DNA from: Pseudomonadota bacterium
GTDB taxonomy: Bacteria; Pseudomonadota; Alphaproteobacteria; UBA11222
Reading direction: 5' to 3'
Length of the DNA stretch: 54,954 nucleotides
Assembly (NCBI GenBank): GCA_036758605.1
Contig: DAIOWE010000004.1
Coordinates: 1-54,954, forward strand
Positions 1 through 49,841 of this stretch are shown in pieces. Positions within the stretch are counted from its first letter, which is position 1; each line of letters starts with the position of its first letter. A program made the translations under genes and the position numbers. The notes under the pieces are model-generated. The model was not told where the DNA came from. It did not search any database and saw only the letters and a list, made by a program, of their open reading frames with translations.

Positions 1-311
1 GCAAAATAGGCCGCATCGCCCTTATTCGCACCATCGGGTTTGCGCACTTCTGCACTGCCGCCATGGCAATCCACGCATCCCAGGATTACGCCCGGACTTG
101 TGTGCATGCTGGCTGCATCACTTGATGTGTGACAGCTTTGACAGCCTGCGCTTTTCGCTGCCGCCTCCTCCTGACTTTGCGATGCGGGTGCAGGCGGCGT
201 TGCGTTATAGGTAATCTCGCGAGGCTTTTCTTCGCCAGATGCATAGACGGCGCCGGCGCCCGGCAAAGTCAGGCCAACCACAAGCATCAGTAATCGGAAA
301 AAAACACGCAT
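1..311 (-). CDS. multihaem c-type cytochrome, N-terminal part only (gene runs off the left edge)
   Basis: It is absent from the ORF track because there is no stop inside the window. The reverse-strand ATG at 311-309 gives MRVFFRLLMLVVGLTLPGAGAVYA/SGEEK, a signal peptide. Two CxxCH haem-c motifs (CQSCH, CVDCH) follow within about 100 aa. The ATG shares one base with the TGA of the upstream gene (TGATG). Confidence 0.8.
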   Translation of the reverse strand, partial: MRVFFRLLMLVVGLTLPGAGAVYASGEEKPREITYNATPPAPASQSQEEAAAKSAGCQSCHTSSDAASMHTSPGVILGCVDCHGGSAEVRKPDGANKGDAAYF

Positions 312-2260
312 CAATAAGCCAATGTAATATTTGCGAGCAGCGTATAGAAATGCTCATTATCTGTATGATACAAATCCTTGAACCCCTTGCCCGGCAGCAG
401 CGCTGCATAAGATAGCCGCATCACCACATTCTGGCTCATCATTGGCCGGTAAATTGCCGATGCCGACATGTCCCAGCCGATACCGTTGCGAATTTCACCT
501 TCGTTGCGCATCACCTCCAGCACATCCGTTTCATTGAAATTCAGATGGTTGATATTGGTGGACAGACGCAGTTGCGGCAGCACATCGAAATCGGCGCCAC
601 CGCCCAGCAGCCGCAGCCCCGGATTAACGAAATTTGATTGGCCATGTTCCCTTGACGAACGCAAATCCGGCAGCACCCCATTGCGCTGTGAAAGCGCCAC
701 GCCGCCACCGCCTATAAGCGGAATATTCTGACGAATCCAGAAACTGGTGTCGGCGCCTGCGAATTGCGGGTTCTCAAAGATGGACGAAAAGCCTTTGGAT
801 TTTTCATCGAACGGGTCTTTGTCGCCGCTGGCATACAGGAACGAACCGCGCAGGCGGGTCCAGCTATAATCAACCGAGGGTTCCGCCGCCAGAAAATAAG
901 CGCGGATGTCACTTTTCTCATCCGTGAACAGTGAACCATCTTCTTCGCCATAGGCATAATAGCCCGACACGGTAAGGTTCAAAAGGCCAAAATGGCCATC
1001 GCCATTATAGCCAAAATAGCCCACCTTGTAATCACGCGGACGCTCCAGCCCGGCAGAGGCGGGGCGCTGCAAAAAGCCGTTCTTGTCGTAGAAAAATTTC
1101 TTTTCCGTATTCCGGTTATAGATCGCGGTTATCTGGCTGGTGAAACCCAGCACCGGAAAATCCTGCCAGAAAAGGTTGCCGACAAACACATCATCGTCGC
1201 GGACTTTCTTTCCCAGATCATTCAGGCCGCTATTCGTGTCCTTTTCAAGCCGCCGGAACCATGCCAGATTGTACTGGAATATATTATTGTTGCGTGTGCC
1301 GAACAGGCGCACGCCAGGCTGGTTATCCAGAAACATAAAGCCACGGAAATCTGCGTTGAAGGGCTGAATGCCGACACGGATCGAGTCAAAATCATAGCGC
1401 TCCGACACATTGCGGATATGGTAATCCAGAAATAATTCCTGCATTCCAACATGATTATCCGAACGCGACTTACCCTGTTCCGGATTGCGCCGCAGCAGCC
1501 CCAGTTCTTTGACCTTGGCATAATTATAGTTAAATACCGGGGTAATGCGCAGTTCAAGGTCTGGCGGCTTGAACGCCGTATTGCCTTTGATCAGCGTCAG
1601 ATTGGTAATCAGATTCTGGTTGAAGACATATTGATCGGGCTTACCAAACAGATCATTCGTTCCCGGTCGCGATGTCGTCGCAAAGCCAACAGGAACCGGA
1701 AATGCGCGCGGTTCGTAAACGGTATCAGAAATGACGTTGAGAAGAACAAAGCCGTCCTTTCCAAATATAGGCTTGTCGCCTTTCAGGACATTGTTGTTGT
1801 AAGGGTCATACCATTTCCCCTTGATGCCGAGCCCTTCCAGAATGCGCCAGCGATCAGGCACCGGAACGATGTCGCCACGGGTTTGCAATTCTTCATAAGA
1901 ACGCGCACGCCCTGTGGCGATGGGCGCGCCCTGGCGTTCGCGTGGATCACCGCGCACCGTGTCATCAACCGGTTCTTCGCCGGGACGCGGACGGCGCAGC
2001 ACCTGTGCGACCTGCTGATATTCCGTATTCGGAGTATTGGCGGCAACAGCAACAGATTGCGGCCCGGCGTTCAGATGGGAAGAGGCGCTTGGAGAACCTG
2101 AAAATGCAGCAGGCGATGGTGTTCCCAGTGGCGGCCCAGCGGGAACCAGAGGCGGAATGACGACAGGTATCGCGTCGGGAATTGGCGGCGCAGCTTTACC
2201 CTGCGCCCAACAGGGGGCAACAGATAAAATCAGCAAGAGTGCAGCTATTCCCCCGCGCAT
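311..2260 (-). CDS. secreted protein, putative outer-membrane beta-barrel (family not recognised)
   Basis: The track ORF is 311..2326. I prefer the ATG at 2260 (MRGGIAALLLILSVAPCWA/QG, a clear signal peptide, 1 nt after the upstream stop). A Pro-rich linker is followed by about 550 aa of alternating hydrophobic/polar stretches with Gly/Asn/Asp turns. The protein ends ...LLANITLAY, with a terminal aromatic residue and hydrophobics at -3 and -5, like an OMP beta-signal. Confidence 0.7.
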   Translation of the reverse strand: MRGGIAALLLILSVAPCWAQGKAAPPIPDAIPVVIPPLVPAGPPLGTPSPAAFSGSPSASSHLNAGPQSVAVAANTPNTEYQQVAQVLRRPRPGEEPVDDTVRGDPRERQGAPIATGRARSYEELQTRGDIVPVPDRWRILEGLGIKGKWYDPYNNNVLKGDKPIFGKDGFVLLNVISDTVYEPRAFPVPVGFATTSRPGTNDLFGKPDQYVFNQNLITNLTLIKGNTAFKPPDLELRITPVFNYNYAKVKELGLLRRNPEQGKSRSDNHVGMQELFLDYHIRNVSERYDFDSIRVGIQPFNADFRGFMFLDNQPGVRLFGTRNNNIFQYNLAWFRRLEKDTNSGLNDLGKKVRDDDVFVGNLFWQDFPVLGFTSQITAIYNRNTEKKFFYDKNGFLQRPASAGLERPRDYKVGYFGYNGDGHFGLLNLTVSGYYAYGEEDGSLFTDEKSDIRAYFLAAEPSVDYSWTRLRGSFLYASGDKDPFDEKSKGFSSIFENPQFAGADTSFWIRQNIPLIGGGGVALSQRNGVLPDLRSSREHGQSNFVNPGLRLLGGGADFDVLPQLRLSTNINHLNFNETDVLEVMRNEGEIRNGIGWDMSASAIYRPMMSQNVVMRLSYAALLPGKGFKDLYHTDNEHFYTLLANITLAY

Positions 2261-2261
2261 A

Positions 2262-4286
2262 TTATTTCCCCTCACAGGCGCGCTGTTCACGTGAGTTGAT
2301 AAACGGCGAATACGGACAAGAGACATACCGCAATCGCACCCCAGCGGGCGTCAATTGGTCCGAACGGATCGCAGCGGGCGCATGCGACACACCCGTGCCA
2401 AGACCAATGCTGGCATTGTGCAGCCCCAAAAAGGCCACCATATCATCCTGATCAATGCCATCACCGGAAACCCCAATGGCGCCGACCAGCACCCCGTTTT
2501 TATAGATCGGCGAACTGCCCGCGAAAATCTGCAATCCATTGGCCAGTGGATTCAACCCCGAGCTGTTCGATACGACCGGCGTACATCCAAGGCCGGTGTC
2601 ATTGACGGCGCCATTCCCATCCGGATCAAAATCCCCCCGCCCATCACCGGTCACGTCAAGATTGAGATTCCGCACAAACAAAACGTGGTTGATAATATTG
2701 CCGACAATCAGATCAAATTGCAGACCGGTTGAAAACGGGCTCCAGTTTGCTACAGGTCGGCTTAGCGGACCGTTGCCATTGGTGTTGACCCCATCGGGAT
2801 AAAAAGGCCGCGCCAGATTGCTAATGGCGCGATCCGTATAGGCAATACCGTCAGACAAAGAACCCGGCCCCACAAAAGCCCGCATATTGGCGGCATAATT
2901 AGGCACGGTATACGCATGCCCTGGGATCAAGCCGTTTATCGCATTCGTCACCACCCGGATGGAGGGAAAGACAGCAGGATTTTCCAGATTTGCCGCCGCG
3001 TTCTGTCTGGACATGAAGGCCGCGCTGCGCGCTTTTTGTAGTGACACGTCAATGCCGAAGATCGGCGCATCCGGTGTTCGCGCCTGGCCCAGAACCTGTC
3101 CTTCCGCATCCACAATGGACACCGTAACCTGCGCAAAGCTTTGCAGAGGACGACGAATTTGCGCCCGCGCGCTGGCGGCAACACGCAGTGCATGCCCAAG
3201 GATGGCCGGAACCTCTGTTGCGGTCAGATTCTGACCCGCATTTGCAGCCCCCGGGACAATTGGAATGAACGGCATATCCGCCCCGCTGGTAAGCAAGAAT
3301 GGCACGAATCCCGCAATCGCCGCAACATTTGCATAACCCGGACCATCACTTGCCGCATTTACCGGACGAATACCCGATCCCGACGTCCCATAGGCCTGTC
3401 CTGCAAAGATACCCACATCCGTATAACCGGTAACCGCAATAAAACCGGTCGGCGCAACCAGGGGCGCCAGCGCCGGGTTGGAAGCAAGTGAACGCACACT
3501 CGCATCCGTATAACGCAGCGTCTTGCCTTCTACAGTTATTCTGCTGGCCAGAATATCCGCAGGTGGCGCGAAACCCGATGAACCCGCAATGGCGATGATT
3601 TCATCCAGATCCGCATCAATATTGCTAACGTCAGCGTCCAGACCATAGACGCCATCCGCCGCTACGCCTATGCCACCGACAACAGCGCCGCCAATATACA
3701 GGGGCAAGCCCCCCGGATCAGCGGACAGGCCAAGAGGTGAACGCTTGGGCCCACGAAATTGATCCGGCGGCACTGGGCTGGCGCCATTAAAGAAACGGCG
3801 ATTGAGATCCGAACAGGGAAGCTGGCTGAACTGCACCCCGAACAGTGGCCCGCCAGGAGCAAGGACTTCACCGGGATTGAAATTTTGCTGCACGATCTGG
3901 CTTGCGGTGCGTGTACTGAATGCATTGCCCGATGAAGACAGATATGCCCCGGTAACGGCCTTTGATATTGCCGCCAGCGTCGAAGGCACTAGCCCCGCAA
4001 GGCCATCAATGCCAGTACGTATCGTGCGCCCGGATGTCACCGCAACAGTGGAAGGGGCACCGGGCATCTGATAAACCGCCAACACATTGCCAACCCGGTC
4101 GGTCACAGCAATGGTGGCAGGACGGCCACGCACAGACGCTTCCTGCGCCGCCTGGGAAACGACACGATAAATATCAGGTCCGGACAAACTCTGCGCACCG
4201 GCCGAACGGCTGCCAGCCAGAATTGAGCCGATCGCAATCAGACCCGTTATGAAAGCCTTTGCCGTCATTCGCTGATTCTTTTTCAT
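2262..4286 (-). CDS. secreted protein with two GlcG/HbpS-like (DUF336, putative haem-binding) domains
   Basis: The track ORF is 2262..4322. The ATG at 4286 gives the signal peptide MKKNQRMTAKAFITGLIAIGSILAGSRSAGA/QS. Two regions carry GlcG-type signatures. The first is ATIAVTDRVGNVLAVYQM ... GGLPLYIGGAVVGGIGVAADG. The second is VTVSIVDAEGQVLGQART ... SLQKARSAAF ... GSSPIYKNGVLVGAIGVSGDGIDQDDMVA. Confidence 0.7.
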   Translation of the reverse strand: MKKNQRMTAKAFITGLIAIGSILAGSRSAGAQSLSGPDIYRVVSQAAQEASVRGRPATIAVTDRVGNVLAVYQMPGAPSTVAVTSGRTIRTGIDGLAGLVPSTLAAISKAVTGAYLSSSGNAFSTRTASQIVQQNFNPGEVLAPGGPLFGVQFSQLPCSDLNRRFFNGASPVPPDQFRGPKRSPLGLSADPGGLPLYIGGAVVGGIGVAADGVYGLDADVSNIDADLDEIIAIAGSSGFAPPADILASRITVEGKTLRYTDASVRSLASNPALAPLVAPTGFIAVTGYTDVGIFAGQAYGTSGSGIRPVNAASDGPGYANVAAIAGFVPFLLTSGADMPFIPIVPGAANAGQNLTATEVPAILGHALRVAASARAQIRRPLQSFAQVTVSIVDAEGQVLGQARTPDAPIFGIDVSLQKARSAAFMSRQNAAANLENPAVFPSIRVVTNAINGLIPGHAYTVPNYAANMRAFVGPGSLSDGIAYTDRAISNLARPFYPDGVNTNGNGPLSRPVANWSPFSTGLQFDLIVGNIINHVLFVRNLNLDVTGDGRGDFDPDGNGAVNDTGLGCTPVVSNSSGLNPLANGLQIFAGSSPIYKNGVLVGAIGVSGDGIDQDDMVAFLGLHNASIGLGTGVSHAPAAIRSDQLTPAGVRLRYVSCPYSPFINSREQRACEGK

Positions 4287-4290
4287 GGTG

Positions 4291-4734
4291 TCAATTTGTC
4301 CGCATGACATCAAAATAACCAAATTTCAGCTCCCCATTGGCCCGGTAATAGACCGTAACCCTGATGGGAAAGTTGAGCGATGACAGATCCTGATTTAATA
4401 TTTTGAAGTTAATCCGGCCTTCAGACTGCGGAAAACCGTTGTCAATAAGATGGGCGGGATCAATATCCCAGAGCCGGTACAAGCCCTGCCGGTCGCGCAT
4501 CAGGGGCGGACTTCCTGAAAGCTGCACAACGACATGCGTGGATTCCGCACTGTCACCGCCCAGGGCAACCTGCCTTTCCACGACCCCGTTAAGCAACCCG
4601 GACAGGACAACTGGCGCCAGTTGAACGCCTGTTGTGGTCAATTCCTGTGCTGAAACCCCAGATGCGGCACAGACAAACAGCACCGCACCGCAAAATCCGG
4701 TTCTGATTTTTCGGAATGTTTCCTGTGGCAACAT
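4291..4734 (-). CDS. small secreted protein of unknown function
   Basis: The ORF is 147 aa with an N-terminal signal peptide (...GAVLFVCAASGVSA/QE). It lies 3 nt after the upstream stop and 4 nt before the next start. I recognise no domain. Confidence 0.65.
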   Translation of the reverse strand: MLPQETFRKIRTGFCGAVLFVCAASGVSAQELTTTGVQLAPVVLSGLLNGVVERQVALGGDSAESTHVVVQLSGSPPLMRDRQGLYRLWDIDPAHLIDNGFPQSEGRINFKILNQDLSSLNFPIRVTVYYRANGELKFGYFDVMRTN

Positions 4735-4737
4735 TAC

Positions 4738-6504
4738 CTAGTTCTTTCCCGGTAACGGCATATCGCCCTGCAACACCGCCGCCTCATCTGCCTGCCGGTT
4801 CCCATGCGCCTTTACTTCCCCCATCCTGGGTGTGCCGGGCAGGTGGAAATCATGGCATGTAATACAGGTCGACGGAACCTTGTTGCTGGCGCTTTCCCCG
4901 CCATGACAATTCTGGCAAACAGCAATCTTTGGCAGTAGAACATCAGTTGCCTTTTTGGAGTTTTCCGCAGCATGGCATGAATCGCACTTCAACATATCAG
5001 AATGCGCAGAATGATCAAAGCGGCCACGCGGCAACCAATTTTTGTTCACAATCGCCGGAACGACAGCCCAGTTCAGAGGGCCATTTCCAGGGCCGGATGA
5101 AACTTCGTGGCATTTGCCGCACATGGTCTTGCCAAAAGACTGATCCGCCACCCGCTGCGCCTGCTGGTCCGCCCATGCCCGGGGATCGGTCTGCCGCTGC
5201 GAGGGAATAGCCGTGTTTTCTCCGGGACGCCGCCTGTCTGTCTCCTGCGCCGGATCTTGTGCGTCGTTCATGCCCCCGCGCAGTCCATAATCACTATAGA
5301 ATTCACGAATCAGCATTTGCGCATTGTCCGCTTGGCCATGCGGCAATGTCCGGTCGGGGCGTCTGGGGTCAAACACCAGCTGATGGCAACGTTCGCACGT
5401 TCCCTCCATTCCGATAGGATCAAAACTTGCCGCCCCTTTGGGAAGCTGATGACAGCCATTACAGTCCAGCGTCTCCTTACCCTTCGGACCCCGGATACCT
5501 TCTTTTTTCAGGTGCAGTTCATGCGGAAATTTCAGCCCGGAATTCTCAACCAGCGCCGCAGGGTCATCCCGTGTAACACGCCTGAATGTACGAGTGGCCG
5601 CATCTGAAACAATATTGGGCCGGAATTCCGGATGCTTCTGATCAAATTTGCCTACATTTTTGATGTTCGCGCCGGGAAGGTTTTTTTCAATTTCGCTGTG
5701 ACAGTCCGTACAAAAACTTTCCTTATTGATGGTAATGGCCTGATCCCCATTATGTTCCCTGTGACAGCCATTGCAGGTGTTTGCGGTCAGGTCTTTGAAC
5801 TGCGGAATACTGGCAATTTCTGCTTTGACGACATCAAAATGATTCGTGATCGGGGCATGACAGGAAAGGCAGGCTCCGTCCAAAACCTGAACGAATGGCT
5901 TCTGGTGGCACAGATTGCACTGATCAGATATGAACCGGTGCGGCGTCGAAATTGGGCCACTATCCCAAACCGAATCAAAACGCGCGCCAACCGTTTTTTC
6001 CGCTGTCGTCTCGGTATGCTGCGAATAAAATAAAACCGGCATTACCAGAAACATTGCCAAAACGATGAGAATGCCAAACCAGGACCAGAGTCTGCGGCTT
6101 AAACCATGATCCACCAGACGAACCGTGCTGCGTTTGGCAAGCTGGGCATAATCATCCCCCAGCGGCCGCACCAACTCCACTTCAATGGCAAGATCCTTGC
6201 CTTCGGGCGGTTCGGCAAGTGTTACGTCAAACGGGCCGATGCCAATCACATCACCAATAACGACAGGCCTGCTTCGGGTGGGTTGCCCATTAACGCGCAC
6301 ATCGGAAAGCTTTTCAACTTCGACAAACAGGCCACCTGGACGCTGATGTATGACCGCATGTTCAAAACGTATGCGTGGATCGGCAAGATAGACTTCCGCA
6401 TTGGTGCTCCGCCCGAAGTGAACGGTTTCAGCAGAGCGCTCCTCGCTTCTGCGTGAAACGCCTCCCTTTTGGCGCCGTGTAAGATATGTGACGAGAATTT
6501 CCAT
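4738..6504 (-). CDS. FHA-like domain / single TM / decahaem c-type cytochrome
   Basis: The N-terminal ~110 aa fits the FHA pattern (VHFGRSTNAEVYLADPRIRFEHAVI...VRVNGQP...GDVIGIGPF), although the usual Ser before the His is replaced. One TM helix follows (LWSWFGILIVLAMFLVMPVLFY). The rest contains ten CxxCH motifs: CNLCH, CLSCH, CNGCH, CTDCH, CNGCH, CERCH, CGKCH, CDSCH, CQNCH, CITCH. Confidence 0.85.
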   Translation of the reverse strand: MEILVTYLTRRQKGGVSRRSEERSAETVHFGRSTNAEVYLADPRIRFEHAVIHQRPGGLFVEVEKLSDVRVNGQPTRSRPVVIGDVIGIGPFDVTLAEPPEGKDLAIEVELVRPLGDDYAQLAKRSTVRLVDHGLSRRLWSWFGILIVLAMFLVMPVLFYSQHTETTAEKTVGARFDSVWDSGPISTPHRFISDQCNLCHQKPFVQVLDGACLSCHAPITNHFDVVKAEIASIPQFKDLTANTCNGCHREHNGDQAITINKESFCTDCHSEIEKNLPGANIKNVGKFDQKHPEFRPNIVSDAATRTFRRVTRDDPAALVENSGLKFPHELHLKKEGIRGPKGKETLDCNGCHQLPKGAASFDPIGMEGTCERCHQLVFDPRRPDRTLPHGQADNAQMLIREFYSDYGLRGGMNDAQDPAQETDRRRPGENTAIPSQRQTDPRAWADQQAQRVADQSFGKTMCGKCHEVSSGPGNGPLNWAVVPAIVNKNWLPRGRFDHSAHSDMLKCDSCHAAENSKKATDVLLPKIAVCQNCHGGESASNKVPSTCITCHDFHLPGTPRMGEVKAHGNRQADEAAVLQGDMPLPGKN

Positions 6505-6510
6505 ATGCCG

Positions 6511-7344
6511 CTACCAGTAAAAGTACACAGCGACAATATGCGCGATCAGGGCGCCAAGCAGTGCAAACGACAGCGGCACATGCACATAAAGCCAGATATC
6601 CAGAAGCGACTTGTACCGCACATCGCGCCTGGCGCGGGCCAGCAGTTCTTCCTTACGCGCCAATAAGCCCAAAAGCGCGCGAAATCCTTCCGCCTGTCCC
6701 GGCGGCGCATTGTCCGCCAGATGGCGTACCGCACGATTTGCATCCCTGGTGGCGCAATCAGGATCGTCGCCGGAAAGTTGACGGATCACACCCCCGCCAA
6801 TGCGGGTGTTTTGCGCCGCGCTCAGAACAATCTGATTAATTTCATCCCCAAGCGTCAGCGCAGCCTCGCGGCATTCTGCATCCAGATCAGAAATTTCGTG
6901 CATCATTTGCACCAGCGTCATGCCGCGCCGGTTATTGGTCATCAATTCCGGCACACGCATATACACAAACAACCCAAATACGCCGCTCAGGATAACAAGC
7001 AGCATAAGAACATAAGCCAGCGTATGGACATTCCAGCCGAACTGAAACCCCGTGTGCAGGGTGCCGATAATAATCAGCGCCAGGCCGAGATAAATATGCG
7101 CACTCAACCAGTCCTCAACCGGCGCCCCGCCCGCACCGTAACGGCGCTTGCGAATGCCAAACCACATCAGCCACAGGATCAGAAAAGCCCCAAAACCGCC
7201 CAGGGCGTAACCAAGCCATGTGCCGCCATTGGGGACGCCATAATCAGGTTCATGAATCCAATAGAGCAGCAGCGCAAGAGCAACGATCGCTGCCGCCCAC
7301 TTTAGATATCTAAAACCCCTGAATACCAGGATGGACTGATGCAT
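6511..7344 (-). CDS. integral membrane protein, putative di-haem b-type cytochrome
   Basis: The 277-aa product has five hydrophobic helices. Helix 3 (SAHIYLGLALIIIGTLHTG) and helix 5 (YVHVPLSFALLGALIAHIV) each carry an exact H-x13-H pair. An approximately 120-aa soluble loop separates helices 4 and 5. The start lies 43 nt after the upstream stop, and the stop lies 6 nt before the next start. Confidence 0.7.
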   Translation of the reverse strand: MHQSILVFRGFRYLKWAAAIVALALLLYWIHEPDYGVPNGGTWLGYALGGFGAFLILWLMWFGIRKRRYGAGGAPVEDWLSAHIYLGLALIIIGTLHTGFQFGWNVHTLAYVLMLLVILSGVFGLFVYMRVPELMTNNRRGMTLVQMMHEISDLDAECREAALTLGDEINQIVLSAAQNTRIGGGVIRQLSGDDPDCATRDANRAVRHLADNAPPGQAEGFRALLGLLARKEELLARARRDVRYKSLLDIWLYVHVPLSFALLGALIAHIVAVYFYW

Positions 7345-7387: not shown

Positions 7388-9793
7388 TTATAATCCCTGC
7401 GATACAACTTTGAAAAATTCTGATGGTTCCACCCGTAATGCCGCGCCGGTGGGACATGCCCGCACACAGGCCGGTCCGCCCAAAACATCTTTACACATGT
7501 CACATTTTACCGCTTTCTTTGGCCCGCCGCCTTCTTTTTTATTGCTGTCCGGCCCCCACTTGCCAGTGACTGCCTGTCCAGGACCGGGTCCCCGGCCAAA
7601 TAAAAGCCATTGCAGAAGACCCGGCTTCTTTGGCAGCTTCGCTGCCATATGAATAACGCCATATGGGCAATTGCGCTCACAGTTTCCACAGCCGATACAG
7701 CTATCTGTAATATACACCTCGCCATTGGCGTTACGGCGCAATGCGTCGGGCGGACAATCGACCATGCAATGCGGATGCTCGCAATGCCTGCACGATGTCG
7801 GAACGTGAAGCGTCTGATAGGTTGGGCCTGCTTCGCGGTTAAGGCGTGACGTGCCCTGATGGGTTTCGGCGCAGGCCTTTTCACAATTATCACAGCGCAC
7901 GCACAGCGCCTCATCAATCAGCAGCACGTCAGTTGCTTCACCCAGCCCCTGTTCGACCAGAAACTGGATGATACCGCCTGCCTCGGGCTGTTCGGTGGTT
8001 TCGATATTTTCCAGCATGCGGCCACGATAGCGCGCCTCAATAGTTCGCCGGACAGCTTCATTGCGCGACATCAGCGCCTGAAACGGCACACCGTCCAGAC
8101 GCAAGGCCTCAACCGCAACCGCCGCACGGATCGTTGCAGAGCGCGGCGCATTGCTGATCAGCGCCATTTCCCCAACATAATTGCCTGCGGCAACATAGGA
8201 GATGACGGCTTCCTTGCCGCCCACTTCACGCGAAACCGTCACCGAACCGCGCTGGATAAGATACAGGCAATCGCCTACATCCCCTTCGCGGAACAATACG
8301 GCACCCTGCTCAAATTTCTCTACTTTAACCGTGTGAATAAGATCTTCCAGATCGGACAAGGGAATGCCCGGTGCAATATATGTCTGAATTTGACGCCCGA
8401 CCGCGACCTCATCCATGACGCGCTTTACGGATTCAACCGAATTGATCAGCTTGATCATCGACCGGCGCGGAGTCTCGATCAGCAACGAAGGCTTGCTTGC
8501 CATCACCGTTGCGGTGCGCCGGCGGCCCGACAAAAGGCCCATCTCACCGAAAAAGGCGCCTTTTCCCAATGAGACAATCCTGGTTTCGTCATCGGAGTCG
8601 ACCTGAATATTCACTTCACCGTCAACGATGGAATAAAAACTGTTGGTGTAGTCATTACGCTCAAAGATAATGTCCCCGCCGCGCGGCGCATGCACATTAC
8701 TGTCCAGCAGGAATTCACGTAATTGCAGTGTCGTAAGCCCTGACAATAGCGGCACCGATTCCTGAATGAGCGCCAGAACTTCGGACACCGTCCTGTTCCC
8801 CAGAATATTGGCGAATTTCTGTTCCAGCAGCGGTTCATCCGCAGGCTTGAGCTGATTGCCCTGAATATATTCAATAACCTCATATCCCTGGTTCATGGCC
8901 TGTTTGATCAGCGGATATCCAGCCAGCGCCCCGATTACATACAGGCCGGGAACATTCGATTCATACTGACCGGAAAGCTCGGGCAATGAGGAAGGATCGG
9001 AGTTGGGAAACTTGATGCCGCAGGTTTCGACAAATTTACGCGGCGGCGAAGCCCCCAGGCGGGCGATAATCCGGTCGCACCTGACTTTGGTTTCGCCTTG
9101 CGGCGTCTTTACGACAATGCCGTCATCATCCACCCGCACCGTATCGGCGTTGTAGACACATTCAATCTGTTTTTTTTCTATGGCGGTCGTGATCGCCGTC
9201 AGATTACCCTGCTTGACACGGGCAAATTCACTGCCCCGGTTGAGGATAATGACATTGTTCTGCCTGGTTAGCGCCAGTGCATTTTCAATGCCCGCATCGC
9301 CCGCCCCCACCACAACAATGGTTTCATCGGAATATTCATCCGGATCATTGAGCTGATACTGCACCCAGTCGCGGTCCTGCCCCGGGACGCCAAGCAACCG
9401 GATGTTGCCCTGTAAACCAATGGCAAACACAACATATTCAGCGTTGATTCTTGTCCCATCCGAAAGTTTCAGCGTGAAATCGCCTTTGGCGCCGCTGATA
9501 GCGGTGACCTCGGAGTTAAAACGGACATTTACCTTCAGATCGGCGATCTGCTTTTCCCATGTGCCAAGAATATCCTCGCGAATGCCGATCTGGAATGAGA
9601 GTTCGCTGCGCAGCGGCAACACATCCGGCGTCGCCATCACCAGCTTGCCCTTCTGGTATTTGTAGATGGTATCGGAGACATGATCGCGCTGTTCCAGCAG
9701 CACATGCGAGACACCTATGGCGGCCGCCCGCCCTGCGGCGCTGAGACCGGCCGGCCCTGAACCGACAATTGCGACTTTTACCCGTTCCTGCAT
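7388..9793 (-). CDS. FAD/NAD(P)-dependent oxidoreductase (thioredoxin-reductase-like) fused to 2 cyclic-nucleotide-binding domains and a multi-[4Fe-4S] ferredoxin domain
   Basis: The 801-aa product starts with VAIVGSGPAGLSAAG (FAD Rossmann fold) and also has VVVGAGDAGIENA (a second dinucleotide fold). Two cNMP-binding signatures are present (FFGEMGLLSGRRRTATVMA and YVGEMALISNAPRSATIRA). There are four Cys clusters: CVRCDNCEKAC, CRHCEHPHCMVDCP, CIGCGNCERNCP and CDMCKD..GGPACVRACP. No signal peptide is present. Confidence 0.85.
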   Translation of the reverse strand: MQERVKVAIVGSGPAGLSAAGRAAAIGVSHVLLEQRDHVSDTIYKYQKGKLVMATPDVLPLRSELSFQIGIREDILGTWEKQIADLKVNVRFNSEVTAISGAKGDFTLKLSDGTRINAEYVVFAIGLQGNIRLLGVPGQDRDWVQYQLNDPDEYSDETIVVVGAGDAGIENALALTRQNNVIILNRGSEFARVKQGNLTAITTAIEKKQIECVYNADTVRVDDDGIVVKTPQGETKVRCDRIIARLGASPPRKFVETCGIKFPNSDPSSLPELSGQYESNVPGLYVIGALAGYPLIKQAMNQGYEVIEYIQGNQLKPADEPLLEQKFANILGNRTVSEVLALIQESVPLLSGLTTLQLREFLLDSNVHAPRGGDIIFERNDYTNSFYSIVDGEVNIQVDSDDETRIVSLGKGAFFGEMGLLSGRRRTATVMASKPSLLIETPRRSMIKLINSVESVKRVMDEVAVGRQIQTYIAPGIPLSDLEDLIHTVKVEKFEQGAVLFREGDVGDCLYLIQRGSVTVSREVGGKEAVISYVAAGNYVGEMALISNAPRSATIRAAVAVEALRLDGVPFQALMSRNEAVRRTIEARYRGRMLENIETTEQPEAGGIIQFLVEQGLGEATDVLLIDEALCVRCDNCEKACAETHQGTSRLNREAGPTYQTLHVPTSCRHCEHPHCMVDCPPDALRRNANGEVYITDSCIGCGNCERNCPYGVIHMAAKLPKKPGLLQWLLFGRGPGPGQAVTGKWGPDSNKKEGGGPKKAVKCDMCKDVLGGPACVRACPTGAALRVEPSEFFKVVSQGL

Positions 9794-14015: not shown

Positions 14016-15413
14016 ATGGAAAAAGCCTTTAATCTCCAGTTCTACATTGATCAATTCACGCTTGCGCGCAACTGGCTGGTGGAAAACGCGCTGGCGCTCA
14101 GCATTGCCACGTTCGGTCAACTGCTGGTCATTGGACTGTTGTTTATCGCGGTCCAACCTGTGGCAACCTATCTGCGCGGACGGCTTGACCAGGTGCCTGA
14201 ATTACCGCGTTTCGAACCGCCATTGCAGTGGATAGAAACGCCACTGCGCTGGATAGCCGCGACGATTACGCCGCTGGTACGGCCGATTCTATGGCTTTTT
14301 CTGCAATGGCTGACGCTTGGCGTCGTAAATTATTTCGAACTGCCGAACCAACTCATCCTGACCGCCGCGAGCCTGACTACCGCCTGGATCGTTATTCGCT
14401 TCAGCACATCGTTTGTCCGTAACGAGACGGTATCACGGCTTATCTCTGTAATCGCATGGACAATCGCAGCGCTGAACATCGTCGGCCTGTTAACGCCTAC
14501 GCTGGAGCTACTGGACAGCAAGGCGTTCACTGTGGGCGCATTGCGTGTCTCCGGCTTGACCGTCATCAATACATTGCTGTCGCTGACAATAACATTGTGG
14601 CTGGCGGCAATGGCCGGGCGGTTCCTCGAACACCGGGTGATGGCGTCCCTCAGCCTGTCGCCGTCTATGCAGGTGCTGATTGTAAAGCTGTTCAAGATCT
14701 TCGTTGTGGCCATTGCCGTCATGCTGGCGCTGTATGCGGTCGGCATTGATCTGACCATTTTTGCGGTTTTCAGCGGGGCCATTGGCATCGGCATCGGGTT
14801 TGGCCTGCAGAAGGCGGTGGCCAACTTTGTTAGCGGCATCACAATTCTGCTGGAAAACTCCATCAAACTGGGGGACGTGATTACCGTTGGTGATACCTAT
14901 GGCTGGGTCAATAGCCTCGGCGCCCGGTTTGTTTCCGTGCTAACACGCGACGGCGTGGAGTATCTGATCCCTAATGAGGATTTGATTACGCAACAGGTGG
15001 TCAACTGGTCACACAGTGACGACCGCGTACGGCTAAAGGCGCCATTCGGCGTTGCCTATAGCTCCAATCTGCGCCAGGTGATCGCATTATGTCTGGAGGC
15101 CGCGGCCGAATCGCCCCGCGTCATTGATGAGCCAAAACCTGTCTGTTTGCTGATGGGATTCGGGGACAGTTCCGTGGATTTTGAATTACGTTTCTGGATT
15201 CGCGATCCCCGCAATGGCTTCTCCAATGTAAAAAGCGACGTGCTGCTGCGCGTTTGGGACAAATTTCAGGCCAACAATATCTCCATGCCGTTCCCACAGC
15301 GCGACATTCACATCATATCATCGCCGAAAGACGGCGAAACTGGACCACAAAATGATCGCACCGCCATGCAAACCGTTGACGGCGCCGGTGCTGAGAATGT
15401 CGCGGCAAAATAG
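14016..15413 (+). CDS. mechanosensitive ion channel family protein (MscS-like), copy A
   Basis: The 465-aa product has several N-terminal TM helices. It carries the MscS core GIGIGFGLQKAVANFVSGITILLENSIKLGDVITVGDTYGWVNSLGARFVSVLTRDGVEYLIPNEDL. Confidence 0.85.
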   Translation: MEKAFNLQFYIDQFTLARNWLVENALALSIATFGQLLVIGLLFIAVQPVATYLRGRLDQVPELPRFEPPLQWIETPLRWIAATITPLVRPILWLFLQWLTLGVVNYFELPNQLILTAASLTTAWIVIRFSTSFVRNETVSRLISVIAWTIAALNIVGLLTPTLELLDSKAFTVGALRVSGLTVINTLLSLTITLWLAAMAGRFLEHRVMASLSLSPSMQVLIVKLFKIFVVAIAVMLALYAVGIDLTIFAVFSGAIGIGIGFGLQKAVANFVSGITILLENSIKLGDVITVGDTYGWVNSLGARFVSVLTRDGVEYLIPNEDLITQQVVNWSHSDDRVRLKAPFGVAYSSNLRQVIALCLEAAAESPRVIDEPKPVCLLMGFGDSSVDFELRFWIRDPRNGFSNVKSDVLLRVWDKFQANNISMPFPQRDIHIISSPKDGETGPQNDRTAMQTVDGAGAENVAAK

Positions 15414-17331: not shown

Positions 17332-18603
17332 TTACTCACGTGCCGCCTCTACGTCACCGAAGTTACGAAAATCCAGCGACGTCGGGTCCTGGAAAAGCCT
17401 GAGGCCAAACTCCGGTAAGATCGCGAGAAGGTGATCGAAGATATCCGCCTGTATGGACTCATAGCCGTCCCACGCCGTGGTAGTGGTGAAGCAGTAAATC
17501 TGGATCGGCAAACCGGTCTGTGTTGGCGCAAGTTGCCGGACCAGCAGCGTCTTGTCCTGCGCAATGCACGGATGCGCGTTCAGATAGGCCATGACATAGG
17601 CGCGAAAGGTTCCGATGTTGGTCGGGCGGCGCTTGTTGACATCATTTTTACTGGCGTCCGGGTTTTTCGCGTTCCACTCGCGCAGCTCCTTTTCCTTGCT
17701 TTCCAGATAGGGGCACAACAGCGCAAAGCGGCGCATCGCGTCCCACTGTCCGGAGGTAAGAAAGCGTATGCTGCGCTGATCAATAAGCAACGACCGGCTT
17801 ATCCGCCGGCCGCCTGACTCAAACATGCCACGCCAGTTCTTGAAAGACCCTTCAATCAGGCGATAGGTTGGAATTGTGGTGATTGTCTTGTCCCAGTTCT
17901 GGACCTTCACCGTATGCAGCGCGATATCGATTACGTCGCCATCGGCATTGAATTGTGGCATTTCTATCCAGTCGCCGACGCGAAGCATATCATTGGAACT
18001 GAGCTGCACCGATGCGACAAGTGACAGGAGAGTGTCTTTGAACACCAGAAGCAGTATGGCCGCCATGGCGCCCAAACCAGAGAACAAAAGCACTGGCGAG
18101 CGGTCAATGAGCGCCGCGATGATCAATATCACCGCCACGCCATAAACGATTATTTTTGTGACCTCCAAAAAACCCTTGATGGGCCGATTTCGGGCCTCGG
18201 GGCGCCGCTCGTAAACGTAATTGGCAAAGTTTAGCGCCGCACCGATTGCCAGCCCGATTGTCATGATGATAAAGGCAGCGGCCACGTTCTGGACTACAAT
18301 AAACACCGGCATCGGAATACCGGACACCAGAACAATGCCCAGTTGTATGACAAGCGCCGGCACAATATTGGATAGCCGCGTGACAACCGCACCGAGCGCC
18401 GGTGTTTCACCGTAAAGAGACATGCGCGCCAACAACCGCATCACGATACGCACGATGATGCGTTTGGATATCCAATTGGCGATCACCATAACCGCGATCA
18501 GAATGGCCAAGGCGATAGAAGTGGCAATCCAGGGCTGCAGGTCATTTGCAATGGACAAATATGTAATGACTACCTCCATTTGCTTGTTGTGGTTCCGGTG
18601 CAA
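17332..18603 (-). CDS. mechanosensitive ion channel family protein (YbdG/MscM-like), copy A
   Basis: The MscS core is LVASVQLSSNDMLRVGDWIEMPQFNADGDVIDIALHTVKVQNWDKTITTIPTYRLI. The track start at 18603 is a TTG, and an in-frame ATG at 18579 (MEVVITYLS) is at least as plausible. Confidence 0.8.
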   Translation of the reverse strand: MHRNHNKQMEVVITYLSIANDLQPWIATSIALAILIAVMVIANWISKRIIVRIVMRLLARMSLYGETPALGAVVTRLSNIVPALVIQLGIVLVSGIPMPVFIVVQNVAAAFIIMTIGLAIGAALNFANYVYERRPEARNRPIKGFLEVTKIIVYGVAVILIIAALIDRSPVLLFSGLGAMAAILLLVFKDTLLSLVASVQLSSNDMLRVGDWIEMPQFNADGDVIDIALHTVKVQNWDKTITTIPTYRLIEGSFKNWRGMFESGGRRISRSLLIDQRSIRFLTSGQWDAMRRFALLCPYLESKEKELREWNAKNPDASKNDVNKRRPTNIGTFRAYVMAYLNAHPCIAQDKTLLVRQLAPTQTGLPIQIYCFTTTTAWDGYESIQADIFDHLLAILPEFGLRLFQDPTSLDFRNFGDVEAARE

Positions 18604-48917: not shown

Positions 48918-49061
48918 TTATTGCCCGGTACAATCTCGCCAGCGGCACCCCGATTGCAGCACATGAATGATGCCGCTGATCACCCGCCGGTCATCCACCC
49001 GTCGCGCACCGGGACGGTTTTTGGGCAGCAACGGCTCGACCCTCGCCCACTGTGCATCCAT
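48918..49061 (-). mobile_element. IS5-family (DUF4096-type N-terminus) transposase stub
   Basis: The peptide MDAQWARVEPLLPKNRPGARRVDDRRVISGIIHVLQSGCRWRDC matches the conserved N-terminus of IS5/IS427-group transposases, then stops after 47 codons. There is no DDE domain and no recognisable terminal inverted repeats. It is fused in frame to the upstream nuclease remnant. Confidence 0.6.
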
Positions 49062-49841
49062 CAGGTTGCCGATCCTGTTCTTGCAATCCTCGTAATCAGC
49101 CTGCGGATTATTTGCCTCAAAATCAGCACGCAGCTCTGGTTTGGGGTTATCGGGCAGAATGTGCTCTATCTCCAGCTTGATGTATTCGTCTAACGAACCT
49201 GACTCTTTCAGCCCTTTATATGCCAAATCCACATGCTGCGTCAGTTTTGCCAGGAAGTAACGTGTGCGGTATTTCTGCATTGAAAAGAGTGAATAGCGTT
49301 TCAACGCATCATGCAATTCCGCCTCTTTGGCCTGCATCCCTTTTTCAAAATGCTCGGAGATAAACTGATTCAGCTTGTCTTTCTGGCTTTTGGGATCGGC
49401 TTCTGCCGCTATTTCACGCAATTCATCTGCCCATAGAGAGAAGTTACGCTCCAGGTCTTTGGTGGGGGTTTTGGTGAATATGTAATGGAATATGAAACTT
49501 TCCAGCTGGCGAACGAAATAATCAAACAGCGGCTTTGGTAAGCTGCTGGCCGCAAGCAATGGCACATAGTGCAGACTGAACGCGCCGCCCGTGAGCAGCC
49601 TCAAATTCTCCATCGCAGTGTTGGCTTTTCCGTCATTGCCACGCCCTTCCGCGAAAGCGAGGTAATGCTCTACGTTACGGGTAATTTTGCGAACAAAGCC
49701 GAACGGATCGGTTTTGTAGTTACAAAGCCCGGCATTCGTATCGTCGATGAGCCAGTCATAAATCTCATCTTCTCTAACGACTGAGTCTTTGCGCGCATTG
49801 TTGATATGGTAACCTTTAATTCCTGGGCAACTTATTGCCTG
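49062..49841 (-). pseudogene. GmrSD-like (DUF262/DUF1524) nuclease gene remnant, truncated at both ends
   Basis: The open frame runs from an in-frame TGA (49842-49844) with no usable start codon at its 5' end. It encodes a helical middle region and the DUF1524 His-Me finger region (LEIEHILPDNP ... NRIGNL). It then runs directly into the IS5 stub. The N-terminal DUF262 (DGQQR) domain is absent. Confidence 0.6.

What the first reader, a model, noticed from the sequence alone, without database searches (positions are those of the whole stretch)
4738..6504. Cytoplasmic FHA-like domain tethered through one TM helix to a periplasmic decahaem cytochrome
The sequence shows directly an N-terminal ~110 aa with the FHA scaffold pattern (FGR ... 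EHAVI ... VNG ... GDVIGIG), one TM helix, then ten CxxCH motifs. FHA domains normally read phosphothreonine marks in Ser/Thr-kinase signalling. Fusing one to a multihaem electron carrier implies either phospho-dependent assembly or gating of the conduit, or signalling from periplasmic redox state to the cytoplasm. The canonical Ser of the S-R-x-H motif is replaced here (I-R-F-E-H), so the domain may be a degenerate, non-pThr-binding variant.
Basis: partly seen in the sequence, partly recalled or inferred. Interest (0 to 1): 0.65.

Follow-up and report, generated by a model that had tools for sequence, protein, structure and literature searches.

The report
FHA-anchored decahaem cytochrome, electron-export operon
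The gene is real: a membrane protein with a cytoplasmic FHA domain that lacks the usual phosphothreonine-binding residues and a periplasmic ten-haem wire, sitting in a conserved operon that probably carries NAD(P)H electrons out of the cell; two recent papers list or describe such proteins, and none has been characterised.

Summary
Residues 1-111 score as FHA in Pfam and fold as FHA. One TM helix (138-160) follows, then ten CxxCH motifs plus ten further invariant His, which implies all-bis-His haems.

The domain keeps the Gly-Arg pair. The phosphate-binding Ser is lost: R46 in the window, and Ser in only 15 of 132 relatives. A family-specific D-P-R loop is conserved instead.

The gene belongs to an operon conserved in nearly all of the 49 related genome loci:
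- a cytoplasmic FAD/NAD(P)H protein with two cNMP domains and 4x[4Fe-4S];
- a 5-TM protein with two invariant H-x13-H pairs (probable dihaem b);
- the FHA-decahaem cytochrome;
- a small periplasmic protein;
- a triple HbpS-like protein;
- an alginate-export-like outer-membrane barrel.

FHA-less relatives keep the same core but use other NAD(P)H modules.

Best reading: a cyclic-nucleotide-gated, quinone-independent NAD(P)H-to-periplasm electron exporter. Its FHA domain most likely acts as a phospho-independent docking or regulatory module, as in SctD/YscD. The core matches PtdE-F-G (2024 preprint) and the Ferrigenium "NHC" (2026 preprint). It is a new member of a known but uncharacterised kind.

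The parts
4738..6504 (-). Whole ORF, 588 aa: FHA, one TM helix, decahaem cytochrome c (PtdG/'NHC'-like)
   Evidence: The ATG lies 6 nt after the stop codon of the upstream gene. M1 is nearly invariant in homologues.
6172..6504 (-). Cytoplasmic FHA domain, residues 1-111. G31-R32 are kept, the canonical Ser is R46, and a family-specific L40-x-D42-P43-R44 loop is conserved.
   Evidence: Pfam 26.1 bits, above the 20.7 cut-off. AF2 pLDDT 87.2. Foldseek hits are FHA domains. GarA profile alignment. Column counts in 132 N-termini.
6094..6171 (-). Conserved juxtamembrane linker, residues 112-137 (V-R-P-L-G-D-D ... L..R-S), with a short helix at 119-125
   Evidence: Conservation. Modelled with lower confidence, pLDDT about 60-66.
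6025..6093 (-). Single TM helix, residues 138-160, oriented N-in/C-out
   Evidence: Hydropathy maximum. Found at the same position in 68 homologues. Positive-inside rule: 5 K/R before the helix, 2 after (sequence).
4741..6024 (-). Periplasmic decahaem domain, residues 161-588. Ten CxxCH plus ten further invariant His (189, 222, 251, 291, 328, 331, 389, 498, 501, 554), which implies all-bis-His haems.
   Evidence: Pfam Cytochrome_C7 50.8 bits, Cytochrom_c3_2 42.8 bits, Paired_CXXCH 32 bits. Only weak matches to solved c7/c3, nine-haem and ActA structures.
6511..7344 (-). 277-aa 5-TM subunit (PtdF-like, 'ferric-reductase-like'). Probable dihaem cytochrome b: H83/H97 in TM3 and H255/H269 in TM5.
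   Evidence: The four His plus H107 are 100% conserved in 48 sequences. Both H-x13-H motifs persist down to about 24% identity. 32 of 32 members hit PF01292 below threshold, 13 hit DUF4405 and 8 hit Ferric_reduct. UniRef name. The Foldseek search of the AF2 model was uninformative.
7388..9793 (-). 801-aa cytoplasmic flavo-iron-sulfur protein: Pyr_redox FAD/NAD(P)H domain, two cNMP-binding domains with canonical phosphate-binding cassettes, and a four-cluster ferredoxin domain with 16 invariant Cys
   Evidence: NCBI name 'cyclic nucleotide-binding domain-containing protein'.
4291..4734 (-). 147-aa secreted protein with no family assignment; present in about two thirds of related operons
2262..4322 (-). 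686-aa secreted protein with three HbpS-like (PF03928) regions. The real start is probably the ATG at residue 13.
   Evidence: Homologues also lie next to FHA-less decahaem genes.
311..2326 (-). 671-aa secreted protein: Pro-rich N-terminal region, highly conserved C-terminal 520 aa ending in ...L-A-Y. Probable alginate-export-like outer-membrane barrel.
   Evidence: UniRef name of the Oceanibacterium homologue. 37% identical to the Verrucomicrobial neighbour.

Best explanation
The gene encodes the periplasmic-wire subunit of a three-subunit inner-membrane electron-export complex.

Proposed electron path: NAD(P)H, then FAD, then four [4Fe-4S] clusters in the 801-aa cytoplasmic protein, whose two cNMP domains gate it. 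Next come two b-haems held by the H-x13-H pairs of the 277-aa 5-TM protein, then ten bis-His c-haems of this protein in the periplasm. From there electrons would pass to the co-transcribed secreted partners: the HbpS-like protein and the alginate-export-like outer-membrane barrel. The quinone pool is bypassed.

The N-terminal FHA domain sits on the cytoplasmic face beside the flavo-FeS subunit and the 115-aa cytoplasmic loop of the b-type subunit. Its canonical phosphothreonine ligands are not conserved, but its peptide-binding face is (G-R and D-P-R loops). It most likely works as a phospho-independent docking or regulatory module that holds or positions the cytoplasmic donor. This would resemble the non-canonical FHA of SctD/YscD, which has the same FHA, one-TM, periplasmic-domain layout.

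Shown here: the fold, the topology logic, the haem and His counts, operon conservation, and loss of the Ser.
Inferred: b-haem binding, the direction of electron flow, and the FHA partner.
For: Fold and sequence of the FHA domain.

Degenerate pThr pocket, counted in 132 N-termini:
- Ser position: R30, A30, P24, S15, L12, Q7.
- Next residue: L88, F22.
- Conserved instead: G31/R32 in 130 of 130, D42 in 121, R44 in 116.

This FHA subtype is found only on decahaems. All 32 full-length N-terminal single-stretch hits among 1.84 billion representatives carry 10 CxxCH (one carries 9).

The operon flavo-FeS / 5-TM / FHA-decahaem / (147 aa) / HbpS-like / barrel is conserved in order and strand in nearly all of 49 genome loci from Alpha- and Gammaproteobacteria.

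Three different NAD(P)H-oxidising modules feed the same cNMP-Fer4 / TM / decahaem core:
- fused Pyr_redox (the window);
- FNR-like protein plus a 2Fe-2S domain (Verrucomicrobia);
- NuoF/NuoG-like proteins (Acidobacteria).

Other support:
- The TM subunit has invariant H83/H97 and H255/H269 at matching membrane depths, kept down to 24% identity, and 32 of 32 members give weak cytochrome b561 hits.
- All 16 ferredoxin Cys and all 10+10 haem ligands are invariant.
- No kinase or PP2C domain is nearby.
- One relative has an adjacent CHASE2-guanylate/adenylate cyclase, which fits cNMP control.
- Precedent for non-canonical FHA on a single-TM protein: SctD (PMC4045390).
Against: - FHA-less relatives have the same core, so the FHA is not needed for basic assembly. 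It is an add-on, which fits regulation at least as well as docking.
- Two invariant or near-invariant arginines (R32, R44) on the canonical face could still bind a phosphate or an acidic mimic, and 15 of 132 members do have Ser.
- One FHA-bearing relative (L068) has no flavo-FeS gene next to it.
- Foldseek gave no significant match for the 5-TM model (best E 0.35), so b-haem binding rests on sequence pattern and sub-threshold Pfam hits.
- The direction of electron flow and the terminal acceptor are unknown.
- The Ferrigenium preprint proposes inward flow from Fe(II) oxidases to quinone.
- No partner of the FHA domain was identified by any computation here.
Confidence: 0.55

Rival explanations
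1. The FHA domain is a working phosphothreonine (or phosphoserine) reader. A Hanks-type kinase encoded elsewhere phosphorylates a cytoplasmic site, and FHA binding switches electron export on or off. Candidate sites are the conserved Thr/Ser143 at the start of the cytoplasmic loop of the 5-TM subunit, or a site on the flavoprotein.
For: - The GR arginine is invariant, and a second arginine (R44) plus D42 are conserved in the loop that normally carries the Ser.
- The closest sequence and structural relatives are true pThr readers: GarA, OdhI, Rv1747.
- There is a conserved N-R-R-G-x-T/S motif in the 5-TM loop of FHA-bearing systems.
- A kinase gene lies beside one distant relative, though that relative is FHA-less.
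Against: - The phosphate-binding Ser is absent in 117 of 132 members, the following Arg/Asn is L or F, and the N-G-T loop is not conserved.
- No kinase or PP2C domain is in the window, and no Hanks kinase was found by tblastn in 855 kb around 49 loci (a single query, so limited sensitivity).
- T143 sits at the N-cap of a predicted helix, which is a structural explanation for its conservation.
Confidence: 0.2
2. The protein is a CymA/NapC-like quinol dehydrogenase or quinone reductase. The TM helix and the membrane-proximal haem exchange electrons with the quinone pool. The 5-TM protein is only a scaffold, and the FHA domain is regulatory. This is the hypothesis of the Ferrigenium preprint, with electron flow possibly inward from Fe(II) oxidation.
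For: - It has the same gross layout as NapC/NirT proteins: one N-terminal TM helix and a periplasmic multihaem domain.
- The preprint argues this for the nonahaem relative.
- The family occurs in Fe(II)-oxidising Gallionellaceae: a 10-CXXCH 'Forkhead-associated protein' cluster in 27 genomes (PMC10734462).
Against: - There is no Pfam Cytochrom_NNT hit, and only 17.8 bits against the 192.2-bit cut-off for DmsE/MtrA.
- The first haem motif starts 36 residues beyond the helix.
- The neighbouring 5-TM protein has four invariant, depth-matched His and cytochrome-b-like hits, so it is unlikely to be redox-inert.
- A cytoplasmic NAD(P)H module of three different kinds is always recruited, which a quinone-coupled enzyme would not need.
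Confidence: 0.12
3. The FHA domain is an oligomerisation or ring-forming element, as in SctD rings or TIFA dimers. It clusters several decahaem wires into a supramolecular assembly rather than binding another subunit.
For: - Sub-threshold Yop-YscD_cpl hit, 22 bits.
- YscD and other T3SS FHA structures are among the Foldseek hits.
- The layout is identical to SctD.
Against: - The score is below the Pfam cut-off of 33.2.
- There are no T3SS genes nearby.
- The conserved residues lie on the canonical peptide-binding loops, not on the sheet faces typically used for self-association.
Confidence: 0.08
4. Outside-in signalling. The redox state of the periplasmic haems is transmitted through the TM helix to the FHA domain, which then recruits or releases a cytoplasmic effector. 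The protein would be mainly a redox sensor rather than a conduit.
For: - FHA domains are signalling modules.
- The linker between the FHA domain and the TM helix is strongly conserved (R-P-L-G-D-D).
- The FHA is an accessory that ancestral-looking FHA-less forms lack.
Against: - Ten bis-His haems is far more than a sensor needs.
- The operon encodes a complete donor-to-outer-membrane chain.
- No transcription factor or output enzyme is conserved in the operon.
Confidence: 0.07

Closest known systems
Ferrigenium straubiae 'NHC' (bioRxiv 10.64898/2026.01.22.701106) and the Gallionellaceae 10-CXXCH 'Forkhead-associated protein' cluster 403 (PMC10734462)
   Same: Cytosolic FHA domain, one TM helix and a periplasmic multihaem domain. 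The gene lies next to a 5-TM protein and a [4Fe-4S] protein. Function unknown.
   Different: The preprint counts nine haems; here there are ten. Its 5-TM protein was reported as having no motifs; here four invariant His and cytochrome-b-like hits are shown. The neighbours differ (nirK and SHP there; HbpS-like protein and outer-membrane barrel here).
PtdE-PtdF-PtdG of the ptdABCDEFG operon (bioRxiv 10.1101/2023.11.21.568154)
   Same: A cNMP-binding 4Fe-4S protein, a ferric-reductase-like membrane protein and a decahaem cytochrome in a row, in marine Alpha- and Gammaproteobacteria, with a suspected porin-cytochrome type function.
   Different: In the window the FAD/NAD(P)H module is fused to the cNMP-FeS protein. 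There are no pentahaem (PtdA) or tetrahaem (PtdD) genes. The outer-membrane barrel is alginate-export-like and is paired with an HbpS-like protein. The paper does not mention an FHA domain.
SctD (YscD/PrgH/MxiG) of type III secretion systems
   Same: N-terminal cytoplasmic FHA fold lacking the full pThr-binding set, one TM helix and a periplasmic domain. The FHA acts as a phospho-independent docking site for a cytoplasmic assembly (PMC4045390). Structural hits 4a0e and 4d9v.
   Different: No sequence-level membership: PF16697 scores 22 bits against a 33.2 cut-off. The periplasmic part is a cytochrome, not ring-building motifs. There is no secretion-system context.
GarA/OdhI-type bacterial FHA domains
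   Same: They are the best sequence (E = 5e-14) and structure matches. GarA also binds metabolic enzymes through its FHA face.
   Different: GarA keeps the S-R-x-H and N-G-T pThr ligands. This family does not.
Tmc/Hmc-type transmembrane redox complexes of sulfate reducers, and NOX/ferric-reductase-domain enzymes (comparison from general knowledge)
   Same: The logic is the same: a cytoplasmic FeS or flavin donor, a membrane dihaem b with His pairs 13 residues apart on two helices, and an extracytoplasmic acceptor (multihaem c in Tmc/Hmc). There are weak NCBIfam hits to TmcA and QrcA in the C-terminal c7-like part.
   Different: No subunit reaches family thresholds. The donor here is NAD(P)H-linked and cNMP-gated. 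The cytochrome is membrane-anchored and carries an FHA domain.

Membership tests
FHA domain (Pfam PF00498) | Scores above the Pfam gathering threshold | tested here: met
   26.1 bits against 20.7, residues 29-90. PF00498 or PF16697 is precomputed on 36 of 68 FHA-bearing homologues.
FHA domain (Pfam PF00498) | Beta-sandwich FHA fold | tested here: met
   AF2 pLDDT 87.2. All 50 listed Foldseek PDB matches are FHA domains, with TM-scores of 0.6-0.79 normalised by target length for the best matches.
FHA domain (Pfam PF00498) | Conserved Gly-Arg in the beta3-beta4 loop | tested here: met
   G31-R32, present in 130 of 130 aligned N-termini.
FHA domain (Pfam PF00498) | Phosphate-binding Ser of S-x-x-H and the following Arg/Asn | tested here: not met
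   The window has R46-F47. Across the family the Ser position is R30/A30/P24/S15/L12/Q7 and the next position is L88/F22. H49 is kept in 97 of 132.
FHA domain (Pfam PF00498) | Asn/Thr of the beta6-beta7 loop (x-N-G-T) | tested here: not met
   GarA S-L-N-G-T aligns with window K-L-S-D-V, and these columns are variable in the family.
FHA domain (Pfam PF00498) | Binding of phosphothreonine peptides | not testable with these tools
   Needs ITC or peptide arrays.
SctD/YscD cytoplasmic domain (PF16697) | Pfam gathering threshold and T3SS gene context | tested here: not met
   22.0 bits against 33.2. No T3SS genes in the window. Only the layout (FHA, one TM helix, periplasmic domain) is shared.
Multihaem cytochrome c (c3/c7 superfamily) | Multiple CxxCH motifs with distal His, and Pfam domain hits | tested here: met
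   10 CxxCH plus 10 further invariant His. PF14522 50.8 bits against 24.8; PF14537 42.8 bits against 25.
Multihaem cytochrome c (c3/c7 superfamily) | Covalent haem attachment, ten haems | not testable with these tools
   Needs haem staining and mass spectrometry. ccmI lies upstream in close relatives.
MtrA/DmsE decahaem family (TIGR03508) | NCBIfam cut-off | tested here: not met
   17.8 bits against 192.2.
NapC/NirT/CymA quinol dehydrogenases (PF03264) | Family HMM match | tested here: not met
   No hit at E<=0.01. Only the single N-terminal TM anchor is shared.
PtdG of ptdABCDEFG | Decahaem gene directly after a ferric-reductase-like TM gene and a cNMP/4Fe-4S gene | tested here: met
   compared with the description.
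PtdG of ptdABCDEFG | Operon also holds pentahaem PtdA, porin PtdB and tetrahaem PtdD | tested here: not met
   No other cytochrome gene in the window operon. An alginate-export-like barrel and an HbpS-like protein are present instead. Some relatives do have extra multihaem genes.
PtdG of ptdABCDEFG | Sequence homology to the published PtdG | not tested
   The sequences are not in the held supplements.
Dihaem cytochrome b / ferric-reductase-domain clan (for the 277-aa neighbour) | Four His on two TM helices about 13 residues apart; family HMM | tested here: inconclusive
   The His pattern is met and invariant. PF01292 scores 21.6 bits against 30.1 for the window protein, and 32 of 32 members hit at E<=1 (best 3.5e-7). 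Foldseek gave no match.

The most novel reading that the evidence does not exclude
The operon encodes a previously uncharacterised type of trans-envelope electron exporter. It would be a bacterial, multi-subunit, NOX-like machine with this path: NAD(P)H, FAD, 4x[4Fe-4S], two b-haems, ten c-haems, then an HbpS-like protein and an alginate-export-like barrel. It bypasses the quinone pool and is doubly gated from the cytoplasm, by cyclic nucleotide on the donor subunit and by a non-canonical FHA domain on the wire subunit. It occurs in aerobic marine heterotrophs such as SAR116 and Oceanibacterium. There it could account for enzymatic extracellular reduction (metals, or oxygen to superoxide) or for redox dumping.
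Probability: 0.3. Interest if true: 0.8.

Novelty: new member of a known kind. Interest (0 to 1): 0.55.

Why it matters
If the model holds, bacteria have a quinone-independent, signal-gated route that moves cytoplasmic NAD(P)H electrons across both membranes. The route is widespread in pelagic Alpha- and Gammaproteobacteria and also in Fe(II)-oxidisers.

That bears on open questions: who performs extracellular metal reduction or reactive-oxygen production in the ocean, and how periplasmic multihaem wires are fed and controlled.

The FHA fusion would extend the SctD principle beyond secretion systems to respiratory-type complexes. In that principle, a non-canonical FHA acts as the cytoplasmic docking foot of a single-pass membrane protein.

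Cultured carriers exist (Oceanibacterium hippocampi CECT 7691, Desertibaculum subflavum), so the model is directly testable.

Tried and rejected
- Plus-strand reading of 4738-6504: it is full of stops, and the gene is on the minus strand.
It worked with the closer set A3.
It was redone after a protein search.
- Foldseek of that model against the PDB: no significant match (best E 0.35). The long cytoplasmic helices probably dominated the comparison. It neither supports nor refutes a cytochrome b fold.
- Profile of the outer-membrane barrel candidate against PDB sequences: no hit. Pfam gave only 1 of 17 members with a weak Alginate_exp hit. The name comes from UniRef.
- Search for kinases and phosphatases: none by Pfam in any large ORF of the window, and none by tblastn with one Hanks kinase in all fetched loci. 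That query has limited sensitivity, and PP2C was not searched in the loci.
- MtrA/DmsE, NapC/NirT and YscD membership: rejected on scores.
- Supplements of the ptd preprint: they hold no PtdG, FHA, forkhead or ferric-reductase entries, so direct homology to PtdG could not be checked.
- The idea that FHA always accompanies the fused Pyr_redox flavoprotein: it holds in the 49 genome loci (where enough flank is present) and in L061-L063, but L068 is a counter-example. The correlation may simply follow phylogeny.
- Iron-uptake role: considered and judged unlikely, because the machine would need about 28 Fe atoms. This is inference only.
Full report
**Observation**

The interval 4738-6504 holds a 588-aa ATG ORF on the minus strand; the plus strand is full of stops. 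It carries ten CxxCH motifs, at residues 196, 212, 244, 265, 348, 370, 462, 507, 530 and 547, and no variant motifs. Composition-preserving shuffles give a mean of 0.03 motifs and a maximum of 2 in 20,000 trials. There is a single hydrophobic segment at about residues 138-160.

Pfam places FHA (PF00498) on residues 29-90 at 26.1 bits, above the 20.7 gathering score. Cytochrome_C7, Cytochrom_c3_2 and Paired_CXXCH hits cover the C-terminal part. A Yop-YscD_cpl hit falls below threshold. The start codon lies 6 nt after the stop of the upstream gene, and M1 is nearly invariant in homologues.

**FHA fold**

I aligned 38 N-termini (A4) and modelled residues 1-135. The model has mean pLDDT 87.2 and pTM 0.76, with ten predicted strands in residues 2-111 and then a short helix. 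Foldseek against the PDB returned 62 matches at E<=0.001. All 50 listed are FHA domains: GarA, Rv1747 FHA-2, OdhI, Ki67, the kinesin-3 FHAs, and the T3SS proteins YscD (4a0e) and 4d9v. The family profile also finds GarA by sequence alone at E = 5e-14.

**Topology**

- There is no signal peptide; residue 2 already starts strand 1.
- Five Arg/Lys precede the helix and two follow it.
- c-Haem attachment takes place outside the cytoplasm (established knowledge of the Ccm system; a ccmI gene lies upstream).

The protein is therefore N-in/C-out, and the FHA domain is cytoplasmic. This is inference from sequence, not a run of a topology predictor.

**State of the phosphothreonine pocket**

The GarA alignment maps GarA G-R onto G31-R32. 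GarA V-S-R-R-H-A maps onto window I-R-F-E-H-A, and the GarA S-L-N-G-T loop maps onto K-L-S-D-V. Counts in 132 non-identical N-termini of the family:

| Position | Residues found |
|---|---|
| G31, R32 | 130 of 130 |
| 46 (canonical Ser) | R30, A30, P24, S15, L12, Q7 |
| 47 (next residue) | L88, F22 |
| H49 | 97 |
| N-G-T columns | variable |
| L40 | 126 |
| D42 | 121 |
| P43 | 89 |
| R44 | 116 |

The linker motif E-L-V-R-P-L-G-D-D...L..R-S is also conserved. The canonical binding face is thus under selection, but not for the canonical ligand set. Phosphate or acidic-mimic binding through R32 and R44 cannot be excluded.

**The family**

A protein search found 75 relatives. Sixty-eight of them share the layout: a TM helix at about 140-160, the first CxxCH at about 196, and ten motifs. 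Seven distant relatives (Verrucomicrobia, Acidobacteria and others) lack the FHA and have the helix at about residue 30.

A profile search of the FHA part against 1.84 billion representatives returned generic FHA proteins plus single-stretch N-terminal hits. All 32 of those that are 500 aa or longer carry ten CxxCH (one carries nine). This FHA subtype is therefore specific to decahaem cytochromes.

All ten CxxCH and ten further His (189, 222, 251, 291, 328, 331, 389, 498, 501, 554) are invariant in 48 sequences. That fits ten bis-His electron-transfer haems rather than a catalytic site. Solved structures match only weakly: a c7-type domain of a Geobacter polymer, ActA, and the nine- and sixteen-haem cytochromes.

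**Genomic context**

A scan of species-representative genomes gave 49 loci with full-length relatives. Most are Alphaproteobacteria: Rhodospirillales, SAR116, Kiloniellaceae and the cultured Oceanibacterium hippocampi CECT 7691. Some are Gammaproteobacteria (Granulosicoccaceae, Sulfuriflexus). The closest is a MAG at 96% identity.

tblastn shows one operon, with the same order and strand, in nearly all loci:
1. an 801-aa flavo-FeS protein;
2. a 277-aa membrane protein;
3. the FHA-decahaem cytochrome;
4. a 147-aa protein, present in about two thirds of loci;
5. a 686-aa HbpS-like protein;
6. a 671-aa protein.

ccmI, AlgH and DUF6065 are neighbours only in close relatives.

**The partners**

*The 801-aa protein.* It has a Pyr_redox FAD/NAD(P)H domain and two cNMP-binding domains with canonical phosphate-binding cassettes (FGE...RRTA and GE...RSA). 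It also has 16 invariant Cys in four ferredoxin-type motifs, and no TM segment.

*The 277-aa protein.* It has five predicted helices crossing the membrane, with an R-K-R-R cytoplasmic loop and a 115-aa cytoplasmic helical insert. H83 and H97 (TM3), H255 and H269 (TM5) and H107 are 100% conserved in 48 sequences. Both H-x13-H motifs persist in homologues at 24-28% identity. This is the spacing and depth-matching of dihaem cytochromes b and ferric-reductase domains (general knowledge). All 32 sampled members hit PF01292 below or near threshold, 13 hit DUF4405 and 8 hit Ferric_reduct. UniRef names the Oceanibacterium protein "Ferric reductase like transmembrane component". Foldseek of the AF2 model (pLDDT 78) found nothing significant, so haem b binding remains an inference.

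*The secreted proteins.* The 147-, 686- and 671-aa proteins have signal peptides. The 686-aa protein has three HbpS-like regions. The 671-aa protein ends in L-A-Y and is unusually conserved. Its Oceanibacterium homologue is named "Alginate export domain-containing protein", which points to an outer-membrane barrel.

**What the FHA-less relatives show**

- In a Verrucomicrobial locus the decahaem gene is preceded by a homologous TM protein and a cNMP-Fer4 protein. Before those lies a separate FNR-like protein with FAD, NAD and 2Fe-2S domains. HbpS-like and 671-like homologues are nearby.
- In an Acidobacterial locus the donor is a NuoF-like protein plus a NuoG-like/cNMP/Fer4 protein.
- Two short contigs show the same cNMP-Fer4, TM, decahaem order.

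Three unrelated NAD(P)H-oxidising modules thus feed one conserved core. This is the strongest argument that the core takes electrons from cytoplasmic NAD(P)H. The relatives also show that the FHA is an accessory, not a requirement for assembly.

FHA-bearing systems carry the fused Pyr_redox form, a K-K-P-G-L-L-x-W-L-L-F-G insertion in the ferredoxin domain, and an N-R-R-G-x-T/S motif after TM4. These correlations may simply follow phylogeny. One FHA-bearing locus has no flavoprotein gene beside it and has a CHASE2 cyclase instead.

**Mechanism proposed**

NAD(P)H reduces FAD, and electrons pass through four [4Fe-4S] clusters to the cytoplasmic-side b-haem (H83/H255). They cross the membrane to the outer b-haem (H97/H269) and enter the ten-haem wire. 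The HbpS-like protein and the barrel would take them onward. Outward flow is favoured by the membrane potential. Inward flow to NAD(P)+ from typical periplasmic donors would be strongly uphill (inference). The cNMP domains would gate the donor.

The FHA domain sits next to the donor and the 5-TM loop. It most likely positions or regulates the cytoplasmic subunit without phosphorylation, as the non-canonical FHA of SctD does for the T3SS sorting platform. No Ser/Thr kinase or PP2C domain occurs in the window, and no Hanks kinase was found in the flanks of the 49 loci.

I put about 0.55 on this composite. The identity of the parts carries much more confidence, and the FHA's partner carries less.

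**Rivals**

- A true pThr reader with a distant kinase (0.2).
- A CymA-like quinone-coupled enzyme, as proposed for Ferrigenium (0.12).
- An oligomerisation foot (0.08).
- An outside-in redox sensor (0.07).

**Comparison with the literature**

- A 2023 Gallionellaceae pangenome lists a "Forkhead-associated protein" cluster with 10 CXXCH in 27 genomes, without comment.
- A 2024 preprint names ptdABCDEFG. Its PtdE (cNMP plus 4Fe-4S), PtdF (ferric-reductase-like) and PtdG (decahaem) match the window's core. The function is stated to be unknown, and FHA is not mentioned.
- A 2026 preprint describes the Ferrigenium nonahaem "NHC" with a cytosolic FHA, next to a 5-TM protein and a [4Fe-4S] protein. 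It says the combination had not been reported before, and it found no motifs in the TM protein.

The window protein is therefore a new alphaproteobacterial member of a kind already noticed but not characterised.

What this analysis adds:
- family-level loss of the pThr ligands, with a conserved D-P-R face;
- the ten distal His;
- the four-His dihaem signature of the TM subunit;
- the interchangeable NAD(P)H modules;
- the conserved HbpS-like and barrel partners.

**Verdict**

Novelty: new member of a known kind. Interest: 0.55.

Noticed in passing
window 6511-7344 (-): The 277-aa membrane protein upstream has two invariant H-x13-H pairs (H83/H97, H255/H269) plus H107. That is a dihaem-b signature. 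The Ferrigenium preprint reported no redox-active or other InterPro motifs in its neighbouring 5-TM protein.
   Followed up: yes
window 7388-9793 (-), residues ~722-740: The flavo-FeS proteins of FHA-bearing systems carry a conserved hydrophobic insertion, K-K-P-G-L-L-Q-W-L-L-F-G-x-G-P-G-P-G, between ferredoxin motifs 3 and 4. FHA-less systems lack it. It is a candidate membrane anchor or FHA ligand.
   Followed up: partly
window 311-2326 (-): The probable outer-membrane barrel is unusually conserved: 37% identity between Alphaproteobacteria and Verrucomicrobia, with many invariant D/N/R/G residues. It has a Pro-rich N-terminal region and no Pfam model above threshold.
   Followed up: partly
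window 2262-4322 (-): A secreted protein with three HbpS-like regions and four conserved Cys but almost no conserved His. It recurs beside decahaem genes across phyla, and its cofactor and role are unknown.
   Followed up: partly
window 14016-15413 (+) / 37073-38482 (+) and 17332-18603 (-) / 39148-40404 (-): Two pairs of MscS-like mechanosensitive channel paralogues, 70% and 76% identical, lie about 22 kb apart.
   Followed up: partly
window 48918-49613 (-): An ORF combines a GmrSD C-terminal nuclease region with an IS4/5 transposase N-terminal piece (DUF4096). It is probably a remnant or a fusion at a mobile-element scar.
   Followed up: no
window 50669-53256 (+): A histidine kinase gene overlaps the start of a 449-aa pentapeptide-repeat protein gene.
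   Followed up: no
window 4291-6504 (-) products; The 90%-identity clusters of the window's 147-aa protein and of the FHA-decahaem each include a record filed under the alga Phaeothamnion confervicola (CAM9491760.1, CAM9491689.1). These are probably bacterial contigs in an algal assembly.
   Followed up: no
L058 10001-11728; L064, L068: The Verrucomicrobial FHA-less homologue has a Cys-rich N-terminus of about 100 aa in place of the FHA. Three distant loci also encode a protein of about 1,300 aa with cytochrome-c3 and LVIVD-repeat hits, which suggests a cell-surface end to the chain.
   Followed up: no
L068 4303-6612 (-): A CHASE2 adenylate/guanylate cyclase is transcribed divergently next to one FHA-decahaem operon. 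This fits cyclic-nucleotide control of the system.
   Followed up: no
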